Part shown: in pieces, positions 1,427 to 54,418 of the stretch | How positions within the stretch are numbered: the stretch's first letter is position 1 | How the letters are laid out: the number at the start of each line of letters is the position of its first letter | Virus record (IMG/VR): IMGVR_UViG_2609460125_000009 | DNA: 64,000 nucleotides | From: a virus | Taxonomy: Duplodnaviria > Heunggongvirae > Uroviricota > Caudoviricetes | Direction: 5' to 3' (one strand) | The notes under the pieces: generated by a model | Seen by the model: the letters and a program-made list of their open reading frames with translations, nothing else | What the model was told of the DNA's origin: nothing | Database searches by the model: none | Program-made: the position numbers and the translations under genes

Positions 1427-1525
1427 AAGACACCACCAGAACAACTCCCTTCCGTTTCCACTTCCAAAAACTGCCACCAGTCGCTATCATCCGCTCATTG
1501 TGATAAGTAAGTAACTACCTACCAG

Positions 1526-4922: not shown

Positions 4923-4997
4923 CAAGTGCCGCTAAAATAAGTAGATGATTACTTATCTTTCTGTAAGAATACTTTCATCTGTTAGCTAGGAGTTGGT

Positions 4998-8448: not shown

Positions 8449-9224
8449 AAACATGGTGATAAGTATTTACTTACTTATCTTTTATGTATAAGATGACTTT
8501 GTTTTCGTTGAGACGCGACTGTTTGAACTTAAATACAAGTGCAAACGAAGAAGTCTATCTGGCAGTAGCCTAATAAGCCAAACACCAGCGAGGTCAGTTT
8601 CCAGCCTCGTTACCGAAATGGGACACACTGAGCGAGTGTGATTGCAGAACGCAGGAGGGAACATTCATGTTCCCTCCGATGAAGTAACAGAATGGGCGGT
8701 TGGTATATTTTCAACTCCATATGACTCCCGGATTCTTAGCCACTGACCGCCCATCCTGTTACGTCATTTTGTTCAATTATGTCGTTTATACTGGGTTAAA
8801 AAGCGGCGACGTAGCCCGGCTGGTATGGTTAGCCAGCACACAACGTTGAGGCCATTACATTTTTATCAATTCTAAGGTTCTATTCACAGAGATACCGGCG
8901 AGCGTTGATATGTAACATGTTGGGCAAACATTCAATCGGAGTAGTGGCCTCAACGTTGTGAAGACAGGATTGTTGTGTAGGTTTAACCACTGTTGCCATT
9001 GGTGCCTGTTTTCACAACAAATGATTCCATACATCACATTGTATAAATTACAAAGTAGGTGCTGTCCTCAGAAACATCATCTACTTAAAGATTTTGCCTT
9101 CTATTGAGCGAAGTCGAAAACGTCTGGCACTAACGGAAAGTGCAAGTAGCGGTGTGTTTCCTGGCAGAAACTAACACCGCCGCGATTGGCACTGTTGAGT
9201 AATAAATACTGGCAGTGCTGAATT

Positions 9225-9299
9225 GATGGTGTAGCTCAGCGGTAGAGCAGTTGGCTGTTAACCAACTGGTCGGTGGTTCGAATCCACCCACCATCGCCA
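9225..9299 (+). tRNA. tRNA-Asn (anticodon GTT)
   Basis: Manually folded cloverleaf: acceptor gatggtg/caccatc, D-arm gctc-agcggta-gagc, anticodon loop ctGTTaa, T-arm ggtgg-ttcgaat-ccacc, discriminator G + CCA. Confidence 0.85.
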
Positions 9300-9304
9300 A
9301 TTTA

Positions 9305-9391
9305 GGGGAGTTAGTCCGTAGAGGTAGCGGGGTAGACTGTAAATCTACTGTCATTGCGACTCGGGTGGTTCGACTCCATCACTCCCCACCA
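9305..9391 (+). tRNA. tRNA-Tyr (anticodon GTA), type II with long variable arm
   Basis: acceptor ggggagt/actcccc, anticodon arm gtaga-ctGTAaa-tctac, T-arm ggtgg-ttcgact-ccatc, discriminator A + CCA; D-arm pairing less clean. Confidence 0.75.
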
Positions 9392-9395
9392 AATT

Positions 9396-9471
9396 GCCGG
9401 TTTAGCTCAGTTGGTAGAGCGCCTGCCTTGTAAGCAGGATGTCAGCGGTTCGATCCCGTTAACCGGCACCA
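9396..9471 (+). tRNA. tRNA-Thr (anticodon TGT)
   Basis: acceptor gccggtt/aaccggc, D-arm gctc-agttggta-gagc, anticodon arm cctgc-ctTGTaa-gcagg, T-arm agcgg-ttcgatc-ccgtt, A + CCA. Confidence 0.85.
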
Positions 9472-10946: not shown

Positions 10947-12050
10947 ATGAAAAATAGCTTTGACAGAGCACGCGCTGCGGAGAACACCTCAAAAGAGGCG
11001 ATTGAGTATCTCGAAAGAGCATCTCAAATGCAGGCCGTTATGATCTCCCAGGTCAGCAATGACATGAGATTCTCGGACGCATTCATGTTATTCACTCGCT
11101 TATCTCTGCTGATAACAAGACGTCGGCCAGAGATCGCTGTTCATTGTATTTTGATACATGTTTTGCCGCACATTGCCGATGTAAAAGTAAGTGATATTAA
11201 TAGGTTCATGGTGAACCAACTGGTCAACCCACTAATACTGGATGGCAAAATTGTTATGGGTCGCCGCGTTTTCTCTCTGATGAAGCAGTTCCTCAGCTGG
11301 TGCGCCTTCCAGGGGATGATCGACGTGTCACCGTTAAACGATATGTCACTTAACAAAGTTGCCGGTGGCGCAAAGCCCACACCTCGCGAGCGGAAGCTGA
11401 CCGACGCAGAGGTATGGGTGTTCTGGAATATATGGGACTACTTCAATGTGTGTGCTGGTACAAAATGGGCGGCCAGGCTATGTCTTGTATCCGCAAGACG
11501 ACCTGACGAAGTACTGCGGGCTAAAAAAAGTGAGTTCAATCTTAAGCGTGGGGTTTGGAATCAAGGCAAGAGGAACAAATCTGCCCGTGAGCATTCTCTG
11601 CCTTTAAGCTCATTAATGCGCACTTGTATTGAAGAGTTGTTCGAATATGGTAAAGACAGCCAGTGGCTCGTGCCTTCGAATAAAAAAATCGGGAAAGACC
11701 TTCCTATGTCTAAAGTGGCAATAGCCCAGGCATTACGTCGTATTCTGGAACGACCAGAACTGATGGAGCTTGAGCCATTTACACCCCGAGATTTGCGCCG
11801 TACTGCGCGTAGTTACTTCCCAGCATTAGGCATAAGCCAGGAGGTATCACGTAAAATCATGAACCACAGTCTTGAGGGGATAGATCGGGTCTACGACCGG
11901 CACGATTATATGGACGAGATGCGAGACGCCTTAGAAAGTTTCTCGACGTACATCGCATCAATCGTAGAGCAACCGGATTTAGACGAAATTGACCACAAAT
12001 TTAAGGGAGATCGTCTATCAACAGAGCTTATTCGTGTAAATTTTTCATAG
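10947..12050 (+). CDS. tyrosine site-specific recombinase/integrase
   Basis: C-terminal catalytic domain with R ... HSL ... R ... Y pattern (RDLRRTARSY, NHSLEG, VYDRHDY); no clear RBS so start is uncertain. Confidence 0.75.
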   Translation: MKNSFDRARAAENTSKEAIEYLERASQMQAVMISQVSNDMRFSDAFMLFTRLSLLITRRRPEIAVHCILIHVLPHIADVKVSDINRFMVNQLVNPLILDGKIVMGRRVFSLMKQFLSWCAFQGMIDVSPLNDMSLNKVAGGAKPTPRERKLTDAEVWVFWNIWDYFNVCAGTKWAARLCLVSARRPDEVLRAKKSEFNLKRGVWNQGKRNKSAREHSLPLSSLMRTCIEELFEYGKDSQWLVPSNKKIGKDLPMSKVAIAQALRRILERPELMELEPFTPRDLRRTARSYFPALGISQEVSRKIMNHSLEGIDRVYDRHDYMDEMRDALESFSTYIASIVEQPDLDEIDHKFKGDRLSTELIRVNFS

Positions 12051-12431
12051 AGACTTTATGGCCTCAACAACCTTTTGTGATGCGCCTTTCTCTTTACCGA
12101 ATCGCTCGTTATATGCAGCAAGAACCTGTTTTTCGTCCTCGTTAAGAGGAGCAGTGCCTTCTTTGTATAAAAATGCTGCGAGTTCGGGTTGGCGTTCTTC
12201 CAGCACCATCATCATAAGACGACTTGGCTCAATACCCAGTGCCAGCGCCAGCGGACGAACCTTATCGATAGGCAAAGGAATTTTGCCGCTTTTAATTAAA
12301 GAAAGGTTGTTGGCGTTTTTATACCCAATTGTTTTGGCTATCTGGGCCTGGCTCATAGGTGAGGATTCAATCAACCCTGCGATAAAAGCAGCGTAGCGAC
12401 TTTCTATAAATTCAATCTTGTTATCAGACAT
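12045..12431 (-). CDS. XRE-family helix-turn-helix transcriptional regulator
   Basis: HTH SQAQIAKTIGYKNANNLSLIKSGK; convergent with the recombinase gene. Confidence 0.65.
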   Translation of the reverse strand: MSDNKIEFIESRYAAFIAGLIESSPMSQAQIAKTIGYKNANNLSLIKSGKIPLPIDKVRPLALALGIEPSRLMMMVLEERQPELAAFLYKEGTAPLNEDEKQVLAAYNERFGKEKGASQKVVEAIKSL

Positions 12432-12682
12432 GGTTACAACCTTTGCGCGTTCAATTCTCTCTGGTAAGTGCTTACCGATATTACATCAAAGGTTAGGGTT
12501 GTAAAGCTATTATCATTTTTTTCGATAGGCACTTAAAAGACCGGTTAAAGGCCATTGCACGGAGAAAAATTAGCCCAAAATAGGTAAGAAAATCAACTTG
12601 CATATGATATGAATGTATTCAGTATTGATACAAATTTTAGTAGTATTCCTTACCATAGTATAAGTTAGAATGGATTGATTGA

Positions 12683-15102: not shown

Positions 15103-15197
15103 ACAAAACAGCCTTAACGATAAGTAACCACTTACGATAGATAATGATATATTTATATAAGAAGTTGAACGCTCATTAGAAAACAAAGGAAAAACGC

Positions 15198-16433
15198 ATG
15201 ACTACTACTGCACTGCAAAATGAAAACAATCCTTCTGATTACCTTGTTTGCAAGTGGTGCGGAAAATCATTTCACTATTTTAAGTCCCATGTTGCCAATG
15301 GTAATTGCGAGGGCATTCCTGAGTCAGTAAAAGATGCCGATCCTGACACCGTACTGAAAATGTACACAACACAGTTTCCAGATGAGCCAACGCTATCGAA
15401 AAAGGCACTTGATGCAATTCAAGCTAAACGTGCCGAGCAAAAAAGCGAAATGGCCAAATCATCTGGCGTGACCAGTAGCCCAGGCTACACAGGCACAGTT
15501 GAGTACAAGACAGATCTGGTCGCAGCTCACGAACTGCTAAATGTAACGGTGAAAGAACTCGGAACAAAACGTGGGACGCCGCTCATGGTTAGCGTCAACG
15601 TCAATACGCCGTTTCCAGAGTTCGTTCCAGAAGTGAAGAAGGGATACGTATATGGCGACTTCGAACTGATCAAAGACATTTTCATGATGCTTGAACTTGG
15701 CATACCTGGCTATTTGTGGGGTCATGCAGGAACAGGCAAATCGTCATTGCCTACACAACTATGTGCTTTGCTCAATCGTCCGTTGATCCGTGCCCAACAT
15801 ACAGCATCAATGGAAGAGGCACATGTTACGGGGCAAATTCTGGCGCGTGATGGCTCTACGTATTTCGAGCCTGGCTTGCTTGCGCTCGCAATGAAGCATG
15901 GCTGGGTTTACCTCGCGGATGAATACGACTTTGCGTTTCCACAAATTCTTGGCGTGTATCAGCCAGTGCTGGAAGGTGAAGCGTTAGTCATCAAAGAGGC
16001 GACTCCAGAATGGCGTCGCATTACTCCGCATGAACGGTTTGCTTTCATTGGCACTGGCAACACGAACGGATCTGGTGATGAAACCGGCTTGTACCAGGGT
16101 ACAAACATCCAGAACGCCGCGAACTTTTCGCGTTTTGGCATCGTTTCGAATGTGAAATACATGAGCAAAGAGGCAGAGATCAACATGTTGATAAATGCCG
16201 GTATCGTGGATGAATACGCAGAAAAGATGGTTAAGTTTGCCGGTATCGTTCGCGATGGATACGAAGAACACCTTATCAGTCAGCCAATTGGCCCTCGTGA
16301 ACTTTTGTTGTCGGCCAAGATTGGAATGATGCGAGGCGACTTTGTGACAGGTATTGAGCGTTCTTTCATTAACAAACTCCCTTCAGCTTCTGCACAAGCG
16401 GCTCGTGAAGTTGTTCAAAAAATATTTGGTTGA
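15198..16433 (+). CDS. AAA+ ATPase, CobS/MoxR-like
   Basis: Walker A GHAGTGKSSL, Walker B VYLADEYD, sensor region; conserved AAAGGAAAAACGCATG start context. Confidence 0.7.
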   Translation: MTTTALQNENNPSDYLVCKWCGKSFHYFKSHVANGNCEGIPESVKDADPDTVLKMYTTQFPDEPTLSKKALDAIQAKRAEQKSEMAKSSGVTSSPGYTGTVEYKTDLVAAHELLNVTVKELGTKRGTPLMVSVNVNTPFPEFVPEVKKGYVYGDFELIKDIFMMLELGIPGYLWGHAGTGKSSLPTQLCALLNRPLIRAQHTASMEEAHVTGQILARDGSTYFEPGLLALAMKHGWVYLADEYDFAFPQILGVYQPVLEGEALVIKEATPEWRRITPHERFAFIGTGNTNGSGDETGLYQGTNIQNAANFSRFGIVSNVKYMSKEAEINMLINAGIVDEYAEKMVKFAGIVRDGYEEHLISQPIGPRELLLSAKIGMMRGDFVTGIERSFINKLPSASAQAAREVVQKIFG

Positions 16434-20162: not shown

Positions 20163-20435
20163 AAAGAATTATGGCGCTTGTTGAGGAAGTCACTCCTCTT
20201 ACGCACTTTGTTTTGCCATGCCGGCAGTTAGCTTCTGCCTTTGACTATTCATGCGGCAACCCCGCATTTCGCCACAATGGGCAATTCACTTTTATGGAAT
20301 AAACTGGCCGTTGTGTCGATTTAATTAGCATGGCCTTACCATGCTAATTTATTCAACTTGTACAATCCTACAAATCTATCCACTCAGGCTTACACCGTCT
20401 TCGTTATTGTAGAAATGAGGATCATCAGCGTTGAA

Positions 20436-20651
20436 TCAGCTTAGAGCAACGACATTTGCTGCTGCTGGGCCTTTAGCCCCATTCTCGATAGAGAATTCGA
20501 CCTGCTGGCCTTCTTCCAAAGTGCGGAAATTATTACTCTGAATTGCCGAAAAATGTACAAAAACATCTTTACTGCCATCAGCAGGAGAAATAAAGCCAAA
20601 GCCTTTATCAGAGTTAAACCATTTTACTAAACCAGTCATTTTATTAGACAT
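20436..20651 (-). CDS. cold-shock protein, CspA family
   Basis: [21 protein letters not shown] ... VFVHFSAI with RNP1/RNP2-like motifs; start moved to the internal Met matching the CspA N-terminus; ~300-nt leader upstream. Confidence 0.85.
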
Positions 20652-20980
20652 AGATATTACCTTCTTAATTTTGTGAGCCACATAGTGCGGCGAGAATTTG
20701 ATCTGTATAGATTGGGACTTACTTAGGCACTTAAGGAGGAGACTCACGAAGAAGGGAAATCAGAAGATAACACTGAACTGAGACTGCTTTACTAAAACTG
20801 CTTACATAAGGTCTGTCTTGCAAACCAACGATGCTATTAACGCATACCCCTTCTTTTCATGCAACCTTTATTTTTCAAAGATAACTAATTTTTGTCACCA
20901 TTGGTTTAGTAAACGTTAACGAACCAGACGATGCCAGACACCTTTACAGAGAACAGATGCCCGCCAATTGGCGGGCATCA

Positions 20981-22515: not shown

Positions 22516-22632
22516 TTTTTGATAGATAATAAGTAAGTACTGATCTATCATTTAACAGCTCGAAAGAGCCACGAATGAACGAAAGCCCAACGCGCATAGC
22601 GCCATCGGCCAAATCACAACAAGGAGAAACAC

Positions 22633-27274: not shown

Positions 27275-27280
27275 ACACAA

Positions 27281-27304
27281 GGCGTCCACAGGACGCCTTT
27301 TTTA
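27281..27304 (+). terminator. rho-independent terminator after the RecA gene
   Basis: ggcgtcc-aca-ggacgcc then ttttttat. Confidence 0.7.
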
Positions 27305-27367
27305 TCTCTTGAAAATATATAAGTGCTTACTTATCATTTTTCACATAACAACCACATAGGAAAACAC

Positions 27368-27568
27368 ATGATCAAAATCTATCTATTGGCAGTAGCCACA
27401 GGCCTTTCAGTGGCTCTCATCTACGGATTACTGGTTCCGTCGCTGATTTCTGCAAAGAGTGATTTGGCCGTCATGCTTGGAGTTCTCGTTGGTTTTGGCG
27501 CTCCAGTAATCGGTCTTATTGGTGGTCGTAAGTTTATTAACTCATTAATCAAAGCAAAGGGGAAATAA
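27368..27568 (+). CDS. small two-TM membrane protein (66 aa)
   Basis: Start at the ATG with GGAAAACACATG context; hydrophobic throughout; directly upstream of the SPFH gene. Confidence 0.5.
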   Translation: MIKIYLLAVATGLSVALIYGLLVPSLISAKSDLAVMLGVLVGFGAPVIGLIGGRKFINSLIKAKGK

Positions 27569-28919: not shown

Positions 28920-28974
28920 TCGCCTATTCATAACTACCAAAATAAGTAAACACTAACCACAAAAGGAAAAACAC

Positions 28975-29250
28975 ATGAGAGTTTTAGTTCGAATCGTTAC
29001 CAGCACTGTCTATGACGCATTTCCGCTTTTTATCGTCAAAGCCGATGGCCTTAACGACGAAGAAACTGACGCGCTGATCCAGCGTACTCTTGTTGAATAT
29101 ACAGGTCATGACGCTGATTCAGTGATGGTTGATGATGATGGTGTTTGTTGGCATAACGGCAACTGTTGGTACGTAGAAGAGACTCAACAAATCAGTGATG
29201 AAGATGCCGCACATCTTGAGCGTATTTTAAGCATCAGCACTTTTGAGTGA
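28975..29250 (+). CDS. hypothetical acidic protein (91 aa)
   Basis: Conserved GGAAAAACACATG context; Asp/Glu-rich. Confidence 0.5.
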   Translation: MRVLVRIVTSTVYDAFPLFIVKADGLNDEETDALIQRTLVEYTGHDADSVMVDDDGVCWHNGNCWYVEETQQISDEDAAHLERILSISTFE

Positions 29251-29289
29251 GTTTACAGTAAAATTTATATAAGTTAGTATCTACCTATC

Positions 29290-29469
29290 ATGAAGATTTT
29301 TATTGAATACTTGTTACTCATCGTTTCAATAGCTTTTGTCATCGACTGCATTTTCACCGGTGTCATTCGTAAAGTCTTTTCCCCGGTGAACGACGTAGTC
29401 ATAAACGCTTTGGCTATCGTGCTCGTATTTAATTCAGCATTTGATGTAATCAAAGAGGTGGCAGCATGA
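29290..29469 (+). CDS. small membrane protein (59 aa)
   Basis: Hydrophobic ORF below the track cutoff; stop overlaps next start. Confidence 0.35.
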   Translation: MKIFIEYLLLIVSIAFVIDCIFTGVIRKVFSPVNDVVINALAIVLVFNSAFDVIKEVAA

Positions 29470-30501: not shown

Positions 30502-31557
30502 CTATTTGCGAGTCTTTGCCTTGCGCAACTCTTCGAGAAGCGCCAGTTCTTCTTTACTCAACATGACCATTTTGCCTTCTTTTTCGTCAGGCACAACGTC
30601 GATAATGTCATCTTGATTCTCATCTGGGAGGCTATATTCCGTCTCATCATTATCGATTTTTGTTGATATTTGTGCCTGGCGTAACTTTGGCCGCCTATAG
30701 TGGATGACGAAGTAGACCGAGTTTCCGCGCTTAACTTCCGTGTAATCGAGATATCCTATCTCTCGCAGCTGTTCCATAGCCTTTCTTACCGTCGCATTCT
30801 GAGTAATAGTGCGACTTGTCAGATTAAGTCTGGCGCGTAAACGGGCTAGTGATATTGGTGCCGGATCAGGCGGCAAACTTTCAATAAAAGTATAAAGCGC
30901 CTGAGCGGATTCTTTTCTTGAGAGTTCGTTTATAGCCCGGAGTTGCAGAAGAACCTTTTTGTCGAACTGGTAGAGTTCGAAAATCTTGGGATCTGCTTTC
31001 AGTTCGACCGTATCGTGCTTGACACTATATTTTGCCGTTTGCACAAGATGCGTTACGTAAAACTCATCAGAGCCTTTGCTACGGAACGAGATGGTATTTG
31101 TGGCAATACGGCTTAGCGAACTGTCCAGGCGTTTGCGTAACTTCGCTGATGACCTGGCGGTCGGAATGCCACACAGCCTTACAAACTCAACGAACGGCAA
31201 CGTGACAGTATCGCCAACGACCTTGTGTTTGGCAAACGCGTGGATTATTCCCACCCACGTTTTAAAGTCGTTATCCATATCAAGCCGAAGGCCAGAGATC
31301 CTTATGTCTTCGTACCCTTCGGCTTTTGCCAGAGACAGCTGTTTGAGTTCAGCAGAGGCATCCATAGAGACCATTTGCCCCTTTCTTCCTCTGGATGTCG
31401 ATTTCAGCGTCGGAACGAAGAGGCCCAGACGCATCAAAGCAACAGGCTGAACAGTGTTATTAGTGTTAGGAACCAACGTAACAACTTCGCCTGTCTTTTT
31501 ATCTGTTTCTGAAAATGCTTCAACGATCGCTATGTTTTTATTGCCGTTTTCGCTCAT
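30502..31557 (-). CDS. iteron-binding plasmid replication initiator (RepA/Rep_3-like)
   Basis: 351-aa protein flanked on both sides by iteron arrays, adjacent to DnaA boxes and GATC cluster; family assignment from architecture and general sequence character. Confidence 0.7.
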
Positions 31558-32945: not shown

Positions 32946-33199
32946 CCCTCCAGATCGTATATTGGCGTAGATAGAATCTACGCCCCCTCAAAATAGCTCT
33001 CATAGCGTTCTACAGTGATCCAGTCTTATTTTTAGTCATACAGACAAGCAAAGTTGCGCCACGATAAATAGGTATATACTTACTTATAAATTTTGTATAT
33101 TAAGGCGCTCGTTTCATTCCTAACATACCGTTATGCATAGTTGTTTACCTCCTCATTGCTCTTAGAATTTGTATCAAAATAACCACAAAGGAAAAACAC

Positions 33200-37743: not shown

Positions 37744-37816
37744 TCTCATTGATAGGTAAGTGCTTATCTATTAACATGGGCCACTAAATATAGTGGCCCT
37801 CTTTATTTGGTGATAC

Positions 37817-42322: not shown

Positions 42323-42492
42323 TTGTAGGTAGTTATCTATCTGTGTATATTTAACATGCGTAATAAAACTCTGGAATGACTATTCGTTTTGGTGGCCTAT
42401 GGCCGCCATTTTTTTATCTGTCTGGTCTTGTTCTCTCAATGAATGTAAACTCACACGATGAATAAGTAATTACTTATCTTTGTGAGGTTTTT

Positions 42493-47928: not shown

Positions 47929-48111
47929 CGTCCCCCTACTGAAAATAAAGCCCATAGAGAGCTTTATAGTGCTGGGTAAGCCAATCACATACCCAGCACC
48001 ACAAAAACGCGCCAGAGAGCTTCTCGTTTGCATTTCTGGCGCGTTTTATTTGATTGCCAGACATAAAATCAAATGCAAAAATAGGTAATCACTTACCTAT
48101 CGAGAAAGAAG

Positions 48112-48705
48112 ATGATTGCAGCCGAAAAAATCAAACAGCGAAAGCGCGACAACTCTCTTCGTGACCTCTGGAGAACACCTGACTGGCTGTTTTCTGCCAT
48201 TCAACGTTATCTTGGAGTGACATTTGATGTTGACGTTGCCTGCAACAAGGACAATGCAAAGCTGCCTAATTTCATAGGCGTTGAGCGTGATGCTTTGAAA
48301 TCTGAATGGGGACAGCCAGGTACAATTGCCTTCCTCAATCCACCCTACTCCAAAATCTCCCCCTGGATTGATGCGGCTATACGTGAGCAGGCTCGCGGAG
48401 TTACAACAGTGATGCTAATTCCTCAATCCCTCGATACAAAGTGGTATGAGCGTGCAACAGAGTGTGCGAATGAGACGATTATTCTGTCTGGTGGCCGCGT
48501 AGCGTTTGTCGAGCCTGACGTCAATTTGGGTCAGGTAGAAGTAAACATCAACCCCGGTGGCAGTATGCTCGTTGTTTTTCGAGGATTTTGTCAGGACGCT
48601 GGGCACTCTATAAGCAAGATCCCTTTGGACGTCATGAAAAGTCTGGGAGGGTATGATCCTGCGAATGTGATCAGGAAAAAAAGACCATCAAAGAAGGCTG
48701 CTTAG
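48112..48705 (+). CDS. DNA N6-adenine methyltransferase (phage Dam-like)
   Basis: Catalytic NPPYS motif and overall organisation of the small phage N6-MTase family. Confidence 0.7.
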   Translation: MIAAEKIKQRKRDNSLRDLWRTPDWLFSAIQRYLGVTFDVDVACNKDNAKLPNFIGVERDALKSEWGQPGTIAFLNPPYSKISPWIDAAIREQARGVTTVMLIPQSLDTKWYERATECANETIILSGGRVAFVEPDVNLGQVEVNINPGGSMLVVFRGFCQDAGHSISKIPLDVMKSLGGYDPANVIRKKRPSKKAA

Positions 48706-48726
48706 TTTGTTCTGGAGTCTGTAATT

Positions 48727-48791
48727 AGCCTGCTTCTGTATATATAAATAACTACATATTAATTATTAATATACGGAAGCAGGCTGTTTTA
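48727..48791 (+). terminator. long-stem hairpin terminator, twin of 1363-1426
   Basis: agcctgcttctgtatat ... atatacggaagcaggct then gtttta; same G.U position as the first copy. Confidence 0.55.
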
Positions 48792-49706: not shown

Positions 49707-50300
49707 ATGACGACGAAGACACCAGCCCGATCGCAAGCAAAAACTCGCAAAAAAGCCAAAAACAAAAATTCTCCCCGCACCAATCCCACAACGCCTGTCG
49801 TAGAGTTCAATCCCCAGCTTAAAACCGTGAAAATCTTCAGTGATGGCTCTTGCCTTAAAAATCCGGGTGGCCCGGGCGGTTACGGTATAGTTCTCCAGTA
49901 TCGTGGTGAGGAACGCGAGTTCTCAGATGGTTTTCATAGCACCACCAATAACCGCATGGAGATGATGGGGGCACTTATCGGGCTGGAGCGTTTGAAATAT
50001 CCATGCAACGTTATTTTGCACTCTGATAGCCAGTATCTGAAAAACGGCATGACACAGTGGATGAAATGGTGGAAACGCAATGGATGGGTGACTTCTGACA
50101 AAAAACCGGTAAAGAATGTTGATCTGTGGAAGCGTCTGGATGAGGCTGCAAGTCGACATAATGTTCGCTGGAAGTGGGTTAAAGGTCACGCCGGGCATCG
50201 TGAAAATGAAATATGTGATCGACTCGCGAAGATCGCAGCTTTTTCCGCAGCAGATATGCCTCACAAGAAAGATATTGGTTTTGTTTACAACAAGCAGTAA
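49707..50300 (+). CDS. rnhA: ribonuclease HI
   Basis: [57 protein letters not shown] align with E. coli RNase HI; start moved to the Met with AGGAG RBS; basic N-terminal extension. Confidence 0.85.
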
Positions 50301-50445
50301 GTAAGTGTTTACCTATCATTTTAAATCATGTATCTTATCGGCGTCAGGATGACAATGTGTCGGTAAGACACAGTTCCAGGATGGAACGAGAAAGGCGGCT
50401 GGCAATCGCCAGCCGCAACTCTTTCTGACACTGGATGGAGTCCAC

Positions 50446-52671: not shown

Positions 52672-54357
52672 ATGAATACAGCCCTTTCTATCATCGACGA
52701 TGCCAGCTCAAACACGGCTATCGACTATCGTCAGGAAATGAATGTCATCCACGAAATTGTGGCCGAGTGCGAGAAAGAGATCGCCTTCATGTATCAGGTA
52801 CACGACTTCGTTTATGGCGACGAACGCCACAACATGATTAATCGCCTGCTGAGACTAAACCATCGACCAGATGAAGATCGCTCGCGTTTAAATCGAGGTT
52901 GGTTGGATAAAGTCGATCTGGAATGGGTGAAACAGAATATTTGGGCCGAGTACTGGAGGAAGGTCACGGACATGACTAACGTTTTGCTGATCATGCCAGC
53001 TTCCCGTCGAGATGAGTGGCGCGAGCAGTTTATAGAGGGCAAACAGGAAGTCATCAAAACTGACAGAACCGGCTACCAGATGAAGGTTAAAGAGTTCGTT
53101 GGTGTACCGGAGTTCAAAGCAGAAACGGTCATACCCACGATGCTTAATTTGCTGAATGACAGGCACAAATATCTCTCTGAGCGCGTGTATGGCTTGTTTA
53201 AGGCGCTGAGTCCTGCGCACAAGACAAATAAGACAAACGGTTTCAGCGAGCGTCTGATAATCGCTGACTGCATTTCTGATTTCTGGCGGGACAGCGTTAG
53301 CGTGAACTATCGCAAAGAGGACTACATCGACGATCTGCGTGTCTTGCTTCATTTCTTCGCGCACAAAGAATTTATTACCATCAACCGCACTGCTGAGGTG
53401 CTATCAGCTGCGTATAGGGCAAACGACTGCCAGACCGGTGACTGGATGAACGTCGATGGAAATCTGATGCGCGTGAAGATGTTCAAGAACGGCAACGTTC
53501 ACTTTGAAATACATCCTGACGTGGCCTGGAAGTTGAATGAGGTGCTGGCTTACAGTATGCCTGCTGCAATCCCCGCGCCATGCCGAACTGCGCCAAAAAC
53601 ACGGGCACCAAAGCAGTTCGGTTTAATCCAGAAGACGATCTCCGTGCCGGTTCGCACTGCGCTTCGTGACGGGCGATTGAGCAAAGACAAAGGCGTATGG
53701 TACTTCTCTGATTCAGCTCTCCAGAAGTCGCAGGTGGAAGAGCTTGAGCGCACACTGAGCTTCATTGGCGGCGTGCAGGAGAAAAAGCACTGGCAGTTCC
53801 CGTATGAGATCGGCCATACGCTAAATACGATTGTGGCTACCGGATTAATACCGGATACAAAATCACACCAGTTCTACCCTACCCCACGCTTGATTGCTGA
53901 GTACGTTGCCAGAGCCACTGAATTGAAGTCTGGTGAGAAGCTGCTGGAGCCTCAAGCCGGACGTGGGGATCTTCTGGCCTATATCAACGCCGATCTGGAA
54001 GATGTTACCTGCATAGAAATCGCACCTCTCTTCGCTGATATCCTGCGCGGAAAAGGGTATACGAACACGATTTGCTGCGACTTCATAAAGTGGTCTGAGG
54101 ACAACGTAGGTTATCAGTTCGACAAAATCGTTATGAACCCGCCGTACTCGCTTGGTCGTCATAGAGAGCACACGCTGGCTGCGCTGGGGCATCTGAAAGT
54201 CGGCGGGCGTCTTGTAGCAGTATTGCCGGGCACTGCGCCAATACTGGACTGGATGACGATGGATAATTACGTTTATGCCAGAGGGAAGTCGTTTACCAAC
54301 GAGTTTGAAGACACAGGGATCACAGTCAGCGTATACGTTTTCAAACGCGTTAAATGA
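52672..54357 (+). CDS. fusion protein with C-terminal N6-adenine DNA methyltransferase domain
   Basis: C-terminal SAM-binding LLEPQAGRGDL and catalytic NPPY; N-terminal ~400 aa of unknown function. Confidence 0.65.
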   Translation: MNTALSIIDDASSNTAIDYRQEMNVIHEIVAECEKEIAFMYQVHDFVYGDERHNMINRLLRLNHRPDEDRSRLNRGWLDKVDLEWVKQNIWAEYWRKVTDMTNVLLIMPASRRDEWREQFIEGKQEVIKTDRTGYQMKVKEFVGVPEFKAETVIPTMLNLLNDRHKYLSERVYGLFKALSPAHKTNKTNGFSERLIIADCISDFWRDSVSVNYRKEDYIDDLRVLLHFFAHKEFITINRTAEVLSAAYRANDCQTGDWMNVDGNLMRVKMFKNGNVHFEIHPDVAWKLNEVLAYSMPAAIPAPCRTAPKTRAPKQFGLIQKTISVPVRTALRDGRLSKDKGVWYFSDSALQKSQVEELERTLSFIGGVQEKKHWQFPYEIGHTLNTIVATGLIPDTKSHQFYPTPRLIAEYVARATELKSGEKLLEPQAGRGDLLAYINADLEDVTCIEIAPLFADILRGKGYTNTICCDFIKWSEDNVGYQFDKIVMNPPYSLGRHREHTLAALGHLKVGGRLVAVLPGTAPILDWMTMDNYVYARGKSFTNEFEDTGITVSVYVFKRVK

Positions 54358-54418
54358 TAGGTAAATACTTACCTAATTTGTGTAAGAATGTAGTTACTAA
54401 ACGATAAGAGAAAAACAC

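What the first reader, a model, noticed from the sequence alone, without database searches (positions are those of the whole stretch)
48079..48102. Recurrent ~20-bp palindromic intergenic motif (ATAGGTAAG-N-CTTACCTAT) in at least 13 gaps
Near-identical imperfect palindromes with half-site ATA(G/A)GTAAG occur in intergenic gaps across the element: 1502-1523, 4936-4959, 12462-12478, 15108-15132, 22521-22550, 27317-27339, 29276-29300, 33069-33090, 37751-37772, 42460-42480, 48079-48102, 50297-50321, 54357-54379. Most lie 20-60 bp upstream of a gene start. This looks like a dedicated regulon: operator sites for one element-encoded dimeric regulator (the XRE-type protein at 12045-12431 is a candidate) or promoters read by an element-specific factor.
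Basis: seen in the sequence. Interest (0 to 1): 0.7.

Follow-up and report, generated by a model that had tools for sequence, protein, structure and literature searches.

The report
Repressor operator sites across a phage-plasmid
A 20-26 bp palindrome repeated about 27 times in this SSU5-type phage-plasmid is most likely the binding site through which the element's own XRE-type repressor shuts off its lytic promoters: a real but familiar kind of regulatory design that seems not to have been described for this widespread plasmid family.

Summary
The window is an SSU5-like phage-plasmid, 98% identical to Escherichia phage Cyrano/pLF82. The consensus ATARGTAAGY|RCTTAYCTAT, often extended to ATG...CAT, matches 11 sites at up to 3 mismatches against 0.04 expected. 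There are 14 strong sites in the window, all intergenic, and about 27 per genome, including the structural and lysis genes.

It behaves as a DNA site for a dimer, not an RNA hairpin: the two halves vary independently, G·U and A·C mismatches are equally common, and several sites cannot fold.

Sigma-70-like promoters overlap the sites on the gene strand, but at varying registers (the site covers the -35, the spacer or the start site). That is repressor-operator geometry, not activator geometry.

A weaker 14-bp core sits on the start site of the XRE repressor gene's own promoter and is conserved from E. coli to Klebsiella, Salmonella, Cronobacter, Citrobacter and Yersinia pMT1. Acinetobacter phage-plasmids with diverged XRE homologues carry their own variants (ATCAGTCAGTACTGACTGAT; ATTAGTAAGCGCTTACTAAT). 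In one of them, three copies lie in the immunity region.

Verdict: a dispersed operator regulon of the XRE repressor, analogous to P1 C1 operators, L5 stoperators and phiC31 CIRs. Binding has not been tested.

The parts
48081..48100 (.). The flagged site, ATAGGTAATCACTTACCTAT. An operator that covers the predicted start site of the adenine methyltransferase promoter.
   Evidence: One mismatch to consensus on both strands; 27.9 bits. Conserved in SSU5 and the Klebsiella-type relatives while the flanks vary (cluster 2).
48054..48082 (+). Sigma-70-like promoter TTGCCA-17-AAAAAT with TG (extended -10). The last two bases of its -10 are motif positions 1-2. The predicted start is near 48089 and the ATG is at 48112.
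   Evidence: The -35 and TGnAAAAAT are kept in the relatives while the spacer varies. The TSS position is an inference.
1503..1522 (.). Site ATAAGTAAGTAACTACCTAC, 12 nt before the ATG at 1535. No good promoter is detected here.
4937..4956 (.). Site ATAAGTAGATGATTACTTAT, followed by a conserved TGtAAGAAT (extended -10) at 4962-4970. The site covers the -35 region.
   Evidence: cluster 21.
8459..8478 (.). It lies upstream of a conserved non-coding block and the tRNA cluster.
   Evidence: 26.7 bits; TTTACT-17-TAAGAT with the -10 at motif position 31; tRNAs at 9225-9468.
12460..12479 (.). Weak site TCTGGTAAGTGCTTACCGAT. Its inner 14-bp palindrome (12463-12476) lies on the predicted start site of the XRE gene's promoter and is the presumed autoregulatory operator.
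   Evidence: The block is invariant in E. coli, Klebsiella, Salmonella, Cronobacter and Citrobacter. pMT1 keeps a 12-bp core.
12478..12505 (-). Promoter of the XRE gene, TTTACA-16-TAATAT.
   Evidence: Both hexamers are invariant in five genera.
12045..12431 (-). XRE / Cro-C1-type HTH protein of 128 aa, the candidate reader of the motif and presumed prophage repressor.
   Evidence: HTH_19 and phrog_8. AF2 model with Cro/C1 fold matches. The recognition helix GYKNxNxLSLIK is nearly invariant. Expressed in the LF82 lysogen as CYRAN_45 (PMC9928086).
15120..15139 (.). Degenerate site ATAAGTAACCACTTACGATA.
   Evidence: 15.6 bits. The SSU5 orthologue scores 18.5 bits.
22529..22548 (.). Site ATAAGTAAGTACTGATCTAT, lying in the spacer of TAGATA-17-TATCAT (22523-22551), upstream of the gp32-like SSB gene.
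27315..27334 (.). Site ATATATAAGTGCTTACTTAT, filling the spacer of the strong promoter TTGAAA-17-TATCAT (27309-27337), just after the terminator at 27279-27299.
   Evidence: 12.9 bits; conserved (cluster 11).
29269..29288 (.). Site ATAAGTTAGTATCTACCTAT. The ATG follows after 2 nt. Overlapping promoter-like matches lie at 29252-29291.
33068..33087 (.). Site ATAGGTATATACTTACTTAT, upstream of the SbcD-like gene, with TATATT (-10) 8 nt downstream.
37752..37771 (.). The best site, ATAGGTAAGTGCTTATCTAT, inside TTGATA-17-TAACAT (37749-37777), upstream of nrdA.
   Evidence: 0 mismatches. The -10 varies as TAACAT/TACCAT/TACTAT/TAATAT (TAnnAT kept) in the relatives (cluster 1).
37778..37799 (+). Terminator hairpin immediately after the site. 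The predicted start of the overlapping promoter falls inside its left arm.
   Evidence: Compensatory changes in the stem across relatives. The start position is an inference.
42462..42481 (.). Site ATAAGTAATTACTTATCTTT. An alternative register at 42458-42477 holds the perfect 16-bp palindrome ATAAGTAATTACTTAT. The SD and GTG of thyX follow directly.
   Evidence: (cluster 0).
50297..50316 (.). Site GTAAGTAAGTGTTTACCTAT, at the end of the RNase H gene.
   Evidence: (cluster 7).
54357..54376 (.). Site ATAGGTAAATACTTACCTAA, with a conserved TGtAAGAAT (extended -10) at 54381-54389.
   Evidence: (cluster 14).

Best explanation
The palindromes are operators: double-stranded DNA sites bound by a dimer of an element-encoded repressor, most probably the 128-aa XRE/Cro-C1-type protein at 12045-12431.

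In the plasmid-prophage state the repressor would occupy about 27 sites. These sites overlap, or directly abut, sigma-70-type promoters in front of the lytic operons (replication, recombination, nucleotide metabolism, methylase, and also head, tail and lysis genes), and binding there would keep host RNA polymerase off them. A weaker core site on the start point of the repressor's own promoter would give negative autoregulation. Sites with no recognisable promoter may act as roadblocks to read-through transcription.

Shown by computation: the motif, its statistics, its conservation, the independent variation of its halves, its overlap with promoter-like sequence, its presence in the XRE promoter, and clade-specific variants alongside diverged XRE homologues.

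Inferred: that XRE is the binding protein, that binding represses, and the positions of the start sites.
For: 1. Strong enrichment and intergenic restriction.

2. About 27 orthologous sites in both Cyrano and SSU5, which share about 80% nucleotide identity; sites are kept while flanks diverge.

3. No RNA signature. Mismatches are 90 G·U against 74 A·C, there is no covariation at pairs 4/17 or 10/11, and the MFE is between 0 and -1 kcal/mol for four sites.

4. Promoter overlap.
- The best sigma-70 model score is higher on the gene strand than on the opposite strand (8.16 against 6.66; Wilcoxon p = 2.7e-4; 44 sites).
- The only site where the minus strand wins clearly is 12460, which faces the minus-strand XRE gene.
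- Five of the eleven plus-strand promoter-like hits that the independent scanner reports between 20 and 60 kb fall on four motif sites: 22529, 27315, 29269 (two overlapping hits) and 37752. A sixth, 48054-48082, ends on motif positions 1-2 of site 48081.
- The -10 begins at motif coordinates -3, 7, 12, 18, 21, 30 or 35. The site therefore covers the start site, the spacer or the -35. This fits steric repression, not activation.

5. The XRE promoter block CTGGTAAGTGCTTACCGATATTACA...TGTAAAG is invariant in five genera, although the rest of the intergenic region diverges. pMT1 keeps it too.

6. The XRE recognition helix is nearly invariant across enterobacterial members that are only 55-70% identical overall, matching the invariant operator.

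7. Acinetobacter phage-plasmids are syntenic and carry XRE homologues at 48% identity over a 92-residue local alignment and 29% in the multiple alignment, with altered recognition helices. They carry ATCAGTCAGTACTGACTGAT (13 distinct sites at up to 6 mismatches in 40 kb, nine of them at up to 4, three of the 13 in the XRE intergenic region) and ATTAGTAAGCGCTTACTAAT (11 sites). In the first, 7 of 11 sites are preceded on the gene strand by a -10-like hexamer ending at motif position 2, which places the operator on the start site.

8. Near-consensus 30-mers occur only on plasmids of roughly 95-215 kb, most of them 100-113 kb, never on chromosomes, in 5,426 complete E. coli genomes. This argues for an element-encoded reader.

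9. CYRAN_45 (the XRE protein) is transcribed in the LF82 lysogen. None of the genes reported as expressed in that lysogen is the first gene after a strong site (PMC9928086).
Against: - There is no binding, footprint or transcript-start evidence of any kind.
- The co-variation argument is not specific to XRE, because every protein of these elements has co-diverged.
- Conservation over all 20-26 bp, including the centre, and the tandem tetranucleotide make-up of each half-site (AAGT-AAGT) are unusual for a Cro/C1-type HTH dimer.
- Several sites (1503, 42462, Cyrano 2020 and 5443) have no credible promoter.
- The flanks, and the -10-like hexamer at motif position 18, are symmetric (43% on the plus strand, 51% on the minus). 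Part of the promoter-likeness may therefore simply be the binding site itself.
- SSU5 lacks XRE yet has sites as good as Cyrano's.
- Direct repression of the late structural operons by the prophage repressor would leave temporal control unexplained.
Confidence: 0.63

Rival explanations
1. The sites are bound by a different element-encoded DNA-binding protein. Candidates are a lytic-phase regulator that activates lytic promoters and shuts off the XRE promoter (Cro-like logic), or one of the two ParB_N-domain proteins acting as a KorB-like global regulator.
For: - A site lies 17 nt upstream of the ParB-like operon in Cyrano and SSU5 (cluster 10).
- CYRAN_119 and CYRAN_120 carry ParB_N domains.
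- A site on the XRE start point would equally suit a protein that turns XRE off.
- SSU5 keeps the sites without XRE.
- KorB of RK2 is a known ParB-type global repressor with dispersed palindromic operators (own knowledge).
Against: - The variable register of site relative to promoter argues against an activator.
- In the Acinetobacter plasmid three sites cluster in the XRE intergenic region.
- No HTH or other DNA-reading domain was identified in the other candidates.
- The small divergent gene is not conserved between the enterobacterial and Acinetobacter elements.
Confidence: 0.17
2. The motif is a phage-specific promoter class, like the Lpa-dependent late promoters of P1 (palindromic -22 box plus -10). 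It would be read by host RNA polymerase with an unidentified element-encoded activator.
For: - The P1 late promoters annotated in NC_005856 read AAGTNACTT-N4-TAnnAT, and the core here is AAGTRCTT.
- TAT(C)AT at motif positions 18-23 is -10-like in 43% of the site groups.
- Sites precede both DNA-metabolism and structural genes.
- SSU5-like elements share several genes with P1: Cra, TciA/B and the tail fibre.
Against: - tblastn finds no Lpa homologue (best E = 0.73) and no sigma homologue.
- The box is 8 bp rather than 9, and the distance from its centre to the -10 is 7.5 rather than 9.
- The -10-like hexamer is equally frequent on the non-coding strand.
- Several sites lie 0-12 nt from the SD or start codon, or cover the predicted start site (48081; the Acinetobacter sites).
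- The best promoters have a good -35 of their own, such as TTGAAA and TTGATA.
Confidence: 0.09
3. The motif acts in RNA, as an intercistronic hairpin serving as a processing site, stability element or terminator component.
For: - The element is palindromic, lies between co-directional genes, and in five orthologous groups is followed within 1-12 nt by a conserved GC-rich hairpin or terminator.
- Some sites fold at -7 to -8 kcal/mol.
Against: - There are no compensatory changes, and A·C mismatches are about as frequent as G·U (74 against 90).
- Four window sites have essentially no hairpin.
- Primary sequence rather than pairing is what is conserved.
- There is no Rfam family match.
- A site occurs in the divergent XRE promoter.
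Confidence: 0.04
4. The sites belong to the regulon of a host transcription factor that the element has recruited.
For: The motif is identical across elements from E. coli, Salmonella, Klebsiella, Cronobacter, Citrobacter and Yersinia.
Against: - Near-consensus matches are absent from all chromosomes of 5,426 complete E. coli genomes (0 chromosomal places against 640 on plasmids).
- The Acinetobacter elements carry their own variants.
Confidence: 0.03

Closest known systems
Phage P1 C1 repressor and its dispersed operators
   Same: Both are plasmid prophages of enterobacteria in which one repressor controls many operons directly. The operators are scattered round the genome, overlap sigma-70 promoters, and include sites at the repressor's own gene. 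The P1 record lists Oref, Omat, Ossb, Oc4, OrepL, Odmt, Oban, O26, Oppp, OpmgR, OpmgT, Olpa and Oc1a-e.
   Different: - C1 operators are asymmetric 17-mers (own knowledge), whereas these sites are 20-26 bp palindromes.
- C1 is a 283-aa protein unrelated in sequence (own knowledge), whereas the candidate here is a 128-aa Cro/C1-type HTH.
- P1 late operons use Lpa-dependent promoters, whereas here the same site also sits inside the head, tail and lysis gene blocks.
Mycobacteriophage L5 gp71 'stoperators' (Cluster A phages)
   Same: - About 24 repressor sites lie throughout the genome, mostly in short intergenic gaps.
- The consensus varies between related phages along with the repressor.
- The lytic derivative D29 has lost the repressor by deletion yet keeps the sites (PMC5712189; PMC9283540). 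This is the same pattern as SSU5.
   Different: - Stoperators are 13-bp asymmetric sites bound by a monomer and point one way relative to transcription.
- They act by blocking elongation.
- The sites here are palindromic and mostly overlap promoter-like sequence. A roadblock function is only conjectured, and only for the promoter-less sites.
Streptomyces phage phiC31 conserved inverted repeats (CIRs)
   Same: A highly conserved palindromic operator associated with autoregulation of the repressor gene recurs in many intergenic regions in front of early genes (own knowledge: Ingham et al. 1994, Nucleic Acids Res 22:821; not retrievable here).
   Different: The sequence is different (17 bp), the repressor family is unrelated, the host is Gram-positive, and the phiC31 promoters are of a special non-sigma-70 type.
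P1 Lpa-dependent late promoters (-22 box)
   Same: A short palindrome with an AAGT...ACTT core sits next to a TAnnAT -10 in front of many operons.
   Different: - The geometry there is fixed and there is no -35.
- They need Lpa, for which no homologue is found here.
- The present sites occupy variable positions, including on the start site.
KorB OB operators of IncP plasmid RK2
   Same: A dozen palindromic operators dispersed over a plasmid are read by one global repressor (own knowledge).
   Different: KorB is a ParB-family CTPase. The link between the ParB_N proteins of this element and the motif is untested, and is weaker than the link to XRE.

Membership tests
Dispersed operator regulon of a temperate-phage repressor (P1 C1 / phiC31 CIR type) | One sequence motif repeated far above chance, concentrated in non-coding DNA | tested here: met
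   11 sites at up to 3 mismatches against 0.04 expected. All 14 strong sites are intergenic.
Dispersed operator regulon of a temperate-phage repressor (P1 C1 / phiC31 CIR type) | Sites overlap the core promoters of the controlled operons | tested here: inconclusive
   Promoter-like sequences overlap most sites on the gene strand (p = 2.7e-4). They are predictions only, and about a quarter of the sites have none.
Dispersed operator regulon of a temperate-phage repressor (P1 C1 / phiC31 CIR type) | A copy of the site in the regulatory region of the repressor gene itself | tested here: met
   The 14-bp core lies on the XRE promoter start site and is conserved in six genera. Three copies lie in the Acinetobacter immunity region.
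Dispersed operator regulon of a temperate-phage repressor (P1 C1 / phiC31 CIR type) | The repressor protein binds the sites and represses transcription | not testable with these tools
   Needs EMSA, a footprint, ChIP or reporter assays.
Dispersed operator regulon of a temperate-phage repressor (P1 C1 / phiC31 CIR type) | Site sequence changes together with the repressor in related elements | tested here: met
   Three XRE clades carry three motif variants. The test is not specific to XRE, because the whole genomes co-diverge.
L5-type stoperators | Asymmetric site in a single orientation relative to transcription | tested here: not met
   The site and its flanks are palindromic.
L5-type stoperators | Blocks elongating RNA polymerase when placed between a promoter and a gene | not testable with these tools
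   Promoter-less sites (1503, 42462, Cyrano 2020 and 5443) would be the candidates.
P1 Lpa-dependent late promoter | 9-bp inverted repeat at -22, exactly 4 nt before a TAnnAT -10, with no -35 | tested here: not met
   The core is 8 bp. The position of the -10 varies from -3 to 35 in motif coordinates, and good -35 hexamers are present at the best sites.
P1 Lpa-dependent late promoter | An Lpa homologue encoded by the element | tested here: not met
   tblastn of P1 Lpa against the window, Cyrano and SSU5 gives a best E of 0.73. Only sequence-level sensitivity was applied.
Structured RNA element (hairpin, RNase III site, terminator) | Pairing maintained by compensatory or G·U-biased changes on the transcribed strand | tested here: not met
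   90 G·U against 74 A·C mismatches, and independent variation at pairs 4/17 and 10/11.
Structured RNA element (hairpin, RNase III site, terminator) | A stable fold at every copy | tested here: not met
   The MFE is 0.0, 0.0, -0.2 and -1.0 kcal/mol for sites 22529, 29269, 1503 and 50297. There is no Rfam hit.
ParB/KorB-type centromere or global operator | Read by a ParB-family HTH protein of the element | not tested
   Two ParB_N proteins exist and a site precedes their operon. No specific link was tested.
Host transcription-factor regulon | Sites also present in host chromosomes | tested here: not met
   0 chromosomal places against 640 plasmid places in 5,426 E. coli genomes. The test covers near-consensus matches only.

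The most novel reading that the evidence does not exclude
The palindrome may be more than a set of promoter operators. One option is a genome-wide set of transcription roadblocks or insulators (a Gram-negative, palindromic counterpart of mycobacteriophage stoperators), working together with the adjacent terminator hairpins. The other is the recognition element of an unidentified activator that defines a phage-plasmid-specific promoter class related to the P1 -22 box. Either reading would mean that the whole lytic programme of the SSU5 supergroup, late genes included, is wired through one 20-bp element.
Probability: 0.15. Interest if true: 0.6.

Novelty: new member of a known kind. Interest (0 to 1): 0.4.

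Why it matters
SSU5-type phage-plasmids are common in Enterobacteriaceae. XRE homologues were found in 995 PLSDB plasmids, including Yersinia pestis pMT1 and Klebsiella plasmids. Members of the group carry resistance genes (PMC9600943, listed). Their regulation is essentially unstudied.

A map of about 27 operator/promoter positions gives three things:
- a first transcription-unit map of these elements;
- a testable model of how lysogeny is held and released;
- a way to predict immunity groups.

On the last point, the operator and the recognition helix are the same across six enterobacterial genera, which predicts cross-immunity between their elements. The Acinetobacter elements should be heteroimmune.

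The map also offers handles for inducing or curing these plasmids.

Tried and rejected
- P1 Lpa lead. I extracted the annotated P1 late promoters and searched for Lpa by tblastn. There is no homologue and the geometry differs.
- Sigma factor lead. An Acinetobacter relative encodes a sigma-70-family protein next to dnaE, but there is no homologue in the window, Cyrano or SSU5.
- RNA hairpin. Pair-type counts and folding energies argue against it, and Rfam finds only three tRNAs and a cspA leader.
- I first read SSU5's lack of the XRE gene as evidence against XRE. I withdrew this once XRE proved to be present in the Klebsiella, Salmonella, Cronobacter, Citrobacter and Yersinia relatives. SSU5 looks like a deletion derivative.
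- Other candidate regulators. Pfam and PHROGs gave nothing decisive. CYRAN_114 is a FljA-like flagellin repressor, probably a moron.
- Searching XRE against PDB sequences gave no hit. The fold search gave only generic Cro/C1 HTH matches at weak E-values.
- Literature. Searches on SSU5, phage-plasmid and promoter terms, and on the motif's own k-mers, found no description of the element. The LF82/Cyrano paper does not mention it.
- A -10 scan by offset showed that the flanks are symmetric. The TATCAT at position 18 cannot therefore, on its own, be taken as a directional promoter signal.
Full report
**What the window is.** The window is 98% identical to Escherichia phage Cyrano (pLF82, OV696614, positions about 29.9-94 kb). 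It is about 80% identical to Salmonella phage SSU5 and 76-78% identical to Klebsiella phage-plasmids. It therefore comes from an SSU5-supergroup phage-plasmid. It covers the partition, replication, recombination and nucleotide-metabolism genes, the integrase/XRE module and a block of small early-type genes. Nearly all lytic genes are on the + strand.

**The observation.**
- The flagged site is ATAGGTAATCACTTACCTAT at 48081-48100.
- The half-site ATARGTAAG occurs 10 times against 0.78 in shuffles.
- The full pattern ATARGTAAGYRCTTAYCTAT at up to 3 mismatches hits 11 distinct sites against 0.04 expected.
- Many secondary hits are ±4 register shifts, because each half-site is itself two tandem tetranucleotides (AT-AAGT-AAGT).
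Site 15120 is degenerate, and site 12460 matches only in its inner 14 bp.
- All 14 strong sites lie in the roughly 12% of the window that is non-coding.
- ATAAGTAA is the joint most frequent reverse-complement-collapsed 8-mer in the window.

**Extent.**
- Scanning whole genomes gives about 27 sites in Cyrano and about 27 at the orthologous places in SSU5. These include the late region: terminase/portal, inside the 3' end of the portal gene, after the capsid gene, between tail genes, and before the tail fibre and the holin. This is not an early-gene regulon.
- An exact-pattern scan of IMG/VR returned 105 loci, and all but four single hits are SSU5-like.
- In 5,426 complete E. coli genomes, a near-consensus 30-mer hits 197 genomes, always on plasmids of roughly 95-215 kb (most 100-113 kb) and never on a chromosome.
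- The phage-derived part of Yersinia pestis pMT1 keeps eight sites.

**DNA or RNA?**
- A logo shows information at all 20 positions. The gene-proximal upstream half is slightly better conserved, and the flanks are partly palindromic: ATG or AAA on the left, CAT or TTT on the right.
- Across 91 distinct 20-mers, mismatched pairs are 90 G·U against 74 A·C.
- Variable pairs 4/17 (GC 27, AC 24, AT 20, GT 12) and 10/11 vary independently.
- Predicted hairpin energies run from 0 to -8.3 kcal/mol, and four sites have none.
- Orthologous sites differ by uncompensated changes.
- Rfam finds nothing at the sites.

This is the behaviour of a double-stranded DNA site read by a symmetric dimer, not of a structured RNA.

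**Relation to promoters.**
- Sigma-70-like matches are depleted in the window overall: 11, 22 and 11 per 20 kb against about 29.5 in shuffles.
- Even so, five of the eleven + strand matches between 20 and 60 kb fall on four motif sites:
  - TTGAAA-17-TATCAT at 27309-27337;
  - TAGATA-17-TATCAT at 22523-22551;
  - TTTACA-17-TAGTAT at 29252-29280 and TTTATA-16-TATCAT at 29264-29291 (both on site 29269);
  - TTGATA-17-TAACAT at 37749-37777.
- A sixth match, TTGCCA-17-AAAAAT with TG at 48054-48082, ends on motif positions 1-2 of site 48081.
- With a simple -35/spacer/-10 model, the best promoter overlapping each site scores higher on the gene strand than on the other strand (mean 8.16 against 6.66; Wilcoxon p = 2.7e-4; 44 sites in three genomes, not all independent).
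- The only site where the minus strand wins clearly, 12460, faces the minus-strand XRE gene.
- Phylogenetic footprints support individual promoters:
  - upstream of nrdA, the -10 varies as TAACAT, TACCAT, TACTAT and TAATAT (TAnnAT kept), while TTGATA is constant;
  - upstream of the methylase, TTGCCA and TGnAAAAAT are kept while the spacer changes.
- The register is not fixed. The -10 starts at motif coordinates -3, 7, 12, 18, 21, about 30 or 35, so the site covers the start point, the spacer or the -35. A repressor tolerates such variation; an activator does not.
- A scan by offset shows that the -10-like TATCAT at position 18 is mirrored on the other strand (43% against 51%). Part of the promoter-likeness therefore belongs to the palindrome itself.
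- About a quarter of the sites have no credible promoter.

**Neighbouring hairpins.** In five orthologous groups the site is followed within 1-12 nt by a GC-rich hairpin whose stem shows compensatory changes. At 37752, at Cyrano 15529 and at Cyrano 9018, the predicted start of the overlapping promoter falls inside or beyond the left arm of that hairpin. Transcripts from upstream would terminate there, while new transcripts would lack the terminator. This is inference. Elsewhere the order is the ordinary one of terminator, then site: 27279-27299 before 27315, and a long hairpin before the -35 at 48054.

**Who reads it?**
- The XRE gene at 12045-12431 (minus strand) has a promoter TTTACA-16-TAATAT at 12505-12478. 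The 14-bp core GGTAAGTGCTTACC begins one base after its -10 and therefore lies on the start point.
- The block CTGGTAAGTGCTTACCGATATTACA...GGTTA...TTGTAAAG is invariant in E. coli, Klebsiella, Salmonella, Cronobacter and Citrobacter elements, while the rest of the intergenic region diverges. pMT1 has it too.
- The protein is a Cro/C1-type HTH with a helical C-terminal part.
- Its homologues all sit on contigs of about 100-116 kb of this family. The recognition helix GYKNxNxLSLIK is nearly invariant among members that are only 55-70% identical overall.
- In LF82 this gene (CYRAN_45) is expressed in the lysogen and is treated as the master repressor (PMC9928086).
- SSU5 lacks the XRE/integrase/CYRAN_46 module, but all the other relatives examined have it. 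SSU5, which is used as a lytic biocontrol phage (cited in PMC7969092), therefore looks like a deletion derivative that has kept its operators. Mycobacteriophage D29 does exactly this with the L5 stoperators (PMC5712189).

**The comparative test.** tblastn found distant XRE homologues on Acinetobacter baumannii plasmids of about 110 kb. These are the AB group, which Pfeifer et al. relate to the SSU5 supergroup (PMC7969092). They are syntenic: XRE, a divergent small gene, cobT-like, an ATPase, dnaE.
- In NZ_CP155459 the most repeated 9-mers spell ATCAGTCAGTACTGACTGAT. There are 13 distinct sites at up to 6 mismatches in 40 kb, nine of them at up to 4, almost all intergenic, and three of the 13 lie in the XRE/divergent-gene region.
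- In pDD520 the repeated palindrome is ATTAGTAAGCGCTTACTAAT, at 11 sites.
- The recognition helices differ accordingly: GYKNANNLSLIKSGK, GFKRPNVLSMIKSGE and GI-NQNMVSFIVRGK.
- In the first Acinetobacter plasmid, 7 of 11 sites are preceded on the gene strand, but not on the other strand, by a -10-like hexamer (AATAAT, AAAGAT, AATAGT, TATATT) ending at motif position 2. This puts the operator on the start point, a position from which only repression is plausible.
- The co-variation is suggestive but not specific to XRE, since all proteins of these elements have co-diverged. The small divergent gene, however, is not conserved between the groups.

**Rivals.**
- P1's Lpa-dependent late promoters (AAGTNACTT-N4-TAnnAT) resemble the core AAGTRCTT. 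But there is no Lpa homologue and no sigma homologue, and both the spacing and the fixed-geometry requirement fail.
- A ParB/KorB-like reader is not excluded. Two ParB_N proteins exist and a site precedes their operon. Nothing links them to the motif specifically.
- A host factor is unlikely.
- An RNA role is unlikely.

**Conclusion.** The motif is best explained as the operator of the element's XRE-type prophage repressor. It is dispersed over about 27 lytic promoters and perhaps a few roadblock positions, with a weak autoregulatory copy at the repressor gene. The design is known from the P1 C1 operators (annotated), the L5 stoperators and the phiC31 CIRs (own knowledge). I found no description of it for the SSU5 supergroup. 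It is a new member of a known kind. Binding, repression and start sites all remain to be shown.

**Unexplained.** I cannot explain how a small Cro/C1-type HTH specifies 10 conserved base pairs per half-site, centre included. Nor can I explain why each half-site is a tandem tetranucleotide whose clade-specific change (AAGT-AAGT to CAGT-CAGT) affects both units.

Noticed in passing
window, e.g. 28961-28977, 27355-27370, 54406-21: Many genes share an almost identical translation-start region, (A)AGGAAAAACACATG. The word AAAACACATG occurs 8 times in the window, and the same region is seen in the relatives. It is a start-associated sequence separate from the palindrome.
   Followed up: no
window about 1362-1420 and about 48726-48786; also Cyrano 31160-31215 and the 3' end of the Cyrano record: Several copies of a long hairpin, gcctgcttctgtatat...(AT-rich loop of about 24 nt)...atatacggaagcaggc, followed by T-rich sequence. 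The loop scores weakly with the motif PWM (14-15 bits). The CTGTATAT arms recall half of a LexA box. Its function is unknown.
   Followed up: partly
window 37778-37799; Cyrano about 15558-15590 and about 9042-9058: Terminator hairpins directly downstream of motif sites have stems that change by compensatory substitutions. The predicted transcript start of the overlapping promoter falls inside the left arm. This suggests a compact terminator-over-promoter arrangement.
   Followed up: partly
window 1-60000: Sigma-70-type promoter-like matches are two- to three-fold depleted compared with dinucleotide shuffles: 11, 22 and 11 found against about 29.5 ± 5 expected per 20 kb.
   Followed up: no
window 20411-20829 (-): A full-length Rfam cspA thermoregulator leader (185.7 bits) lies on the minus strand, so the element carries a cspA-type cold-shock gene with its regulatory 5' UTR.
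   Followed up: no
window 8479-9468: Downstream of the strong site at 8459 there is a non-coding block conserved with SSU5, followed by three tRNA genes (9225-9468). P1 has a dicF-like region and tRNA-Asn/Thr in the corresponding arrangement behind its C1-controlled ban promoter.
   Followed up: no
Cyrano 100780-101301 (L002:20980-21501, minus strand), outside the window: The gene annotated as 'Transcriptional regulator' CYRAN_114 is a full-length FljA homologue (Pfam Flag1_repress, E = 1e-80), a repressor of phase-1 flagellin. It is probably a moron acting on host flagellin.
   Followed up: no
L118:15101-15766 (Acinetobacter pDD520): The Acinetobacter relative encodes a protein annotated as a sigma-70-family sigma factor, between the MoxR/CobS-like ATPase and dnaE. 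No homologue is detectable in the enterobacterial elements.
   Followed up: partly
L119 (Yersinia pestis pMT1, NC_017155.1 44765-85148): pMT1 keeps the XRE homologue (65% identity), its promoter with a core site, and seven further motif sites in its phage-derived half. There are none in the caf1/IS region.
   Followed up: partly
window 12580-12675: The XRE/divergent-gene intergenic region also holds isolated half-sites: ATAGGTAAG at 12580, and CTTACCATAG followed by TATAAGTTAG at about 12652-12671. The relatives have a conserved TAGGTAGTAATAT block there.
   Followed up: partly
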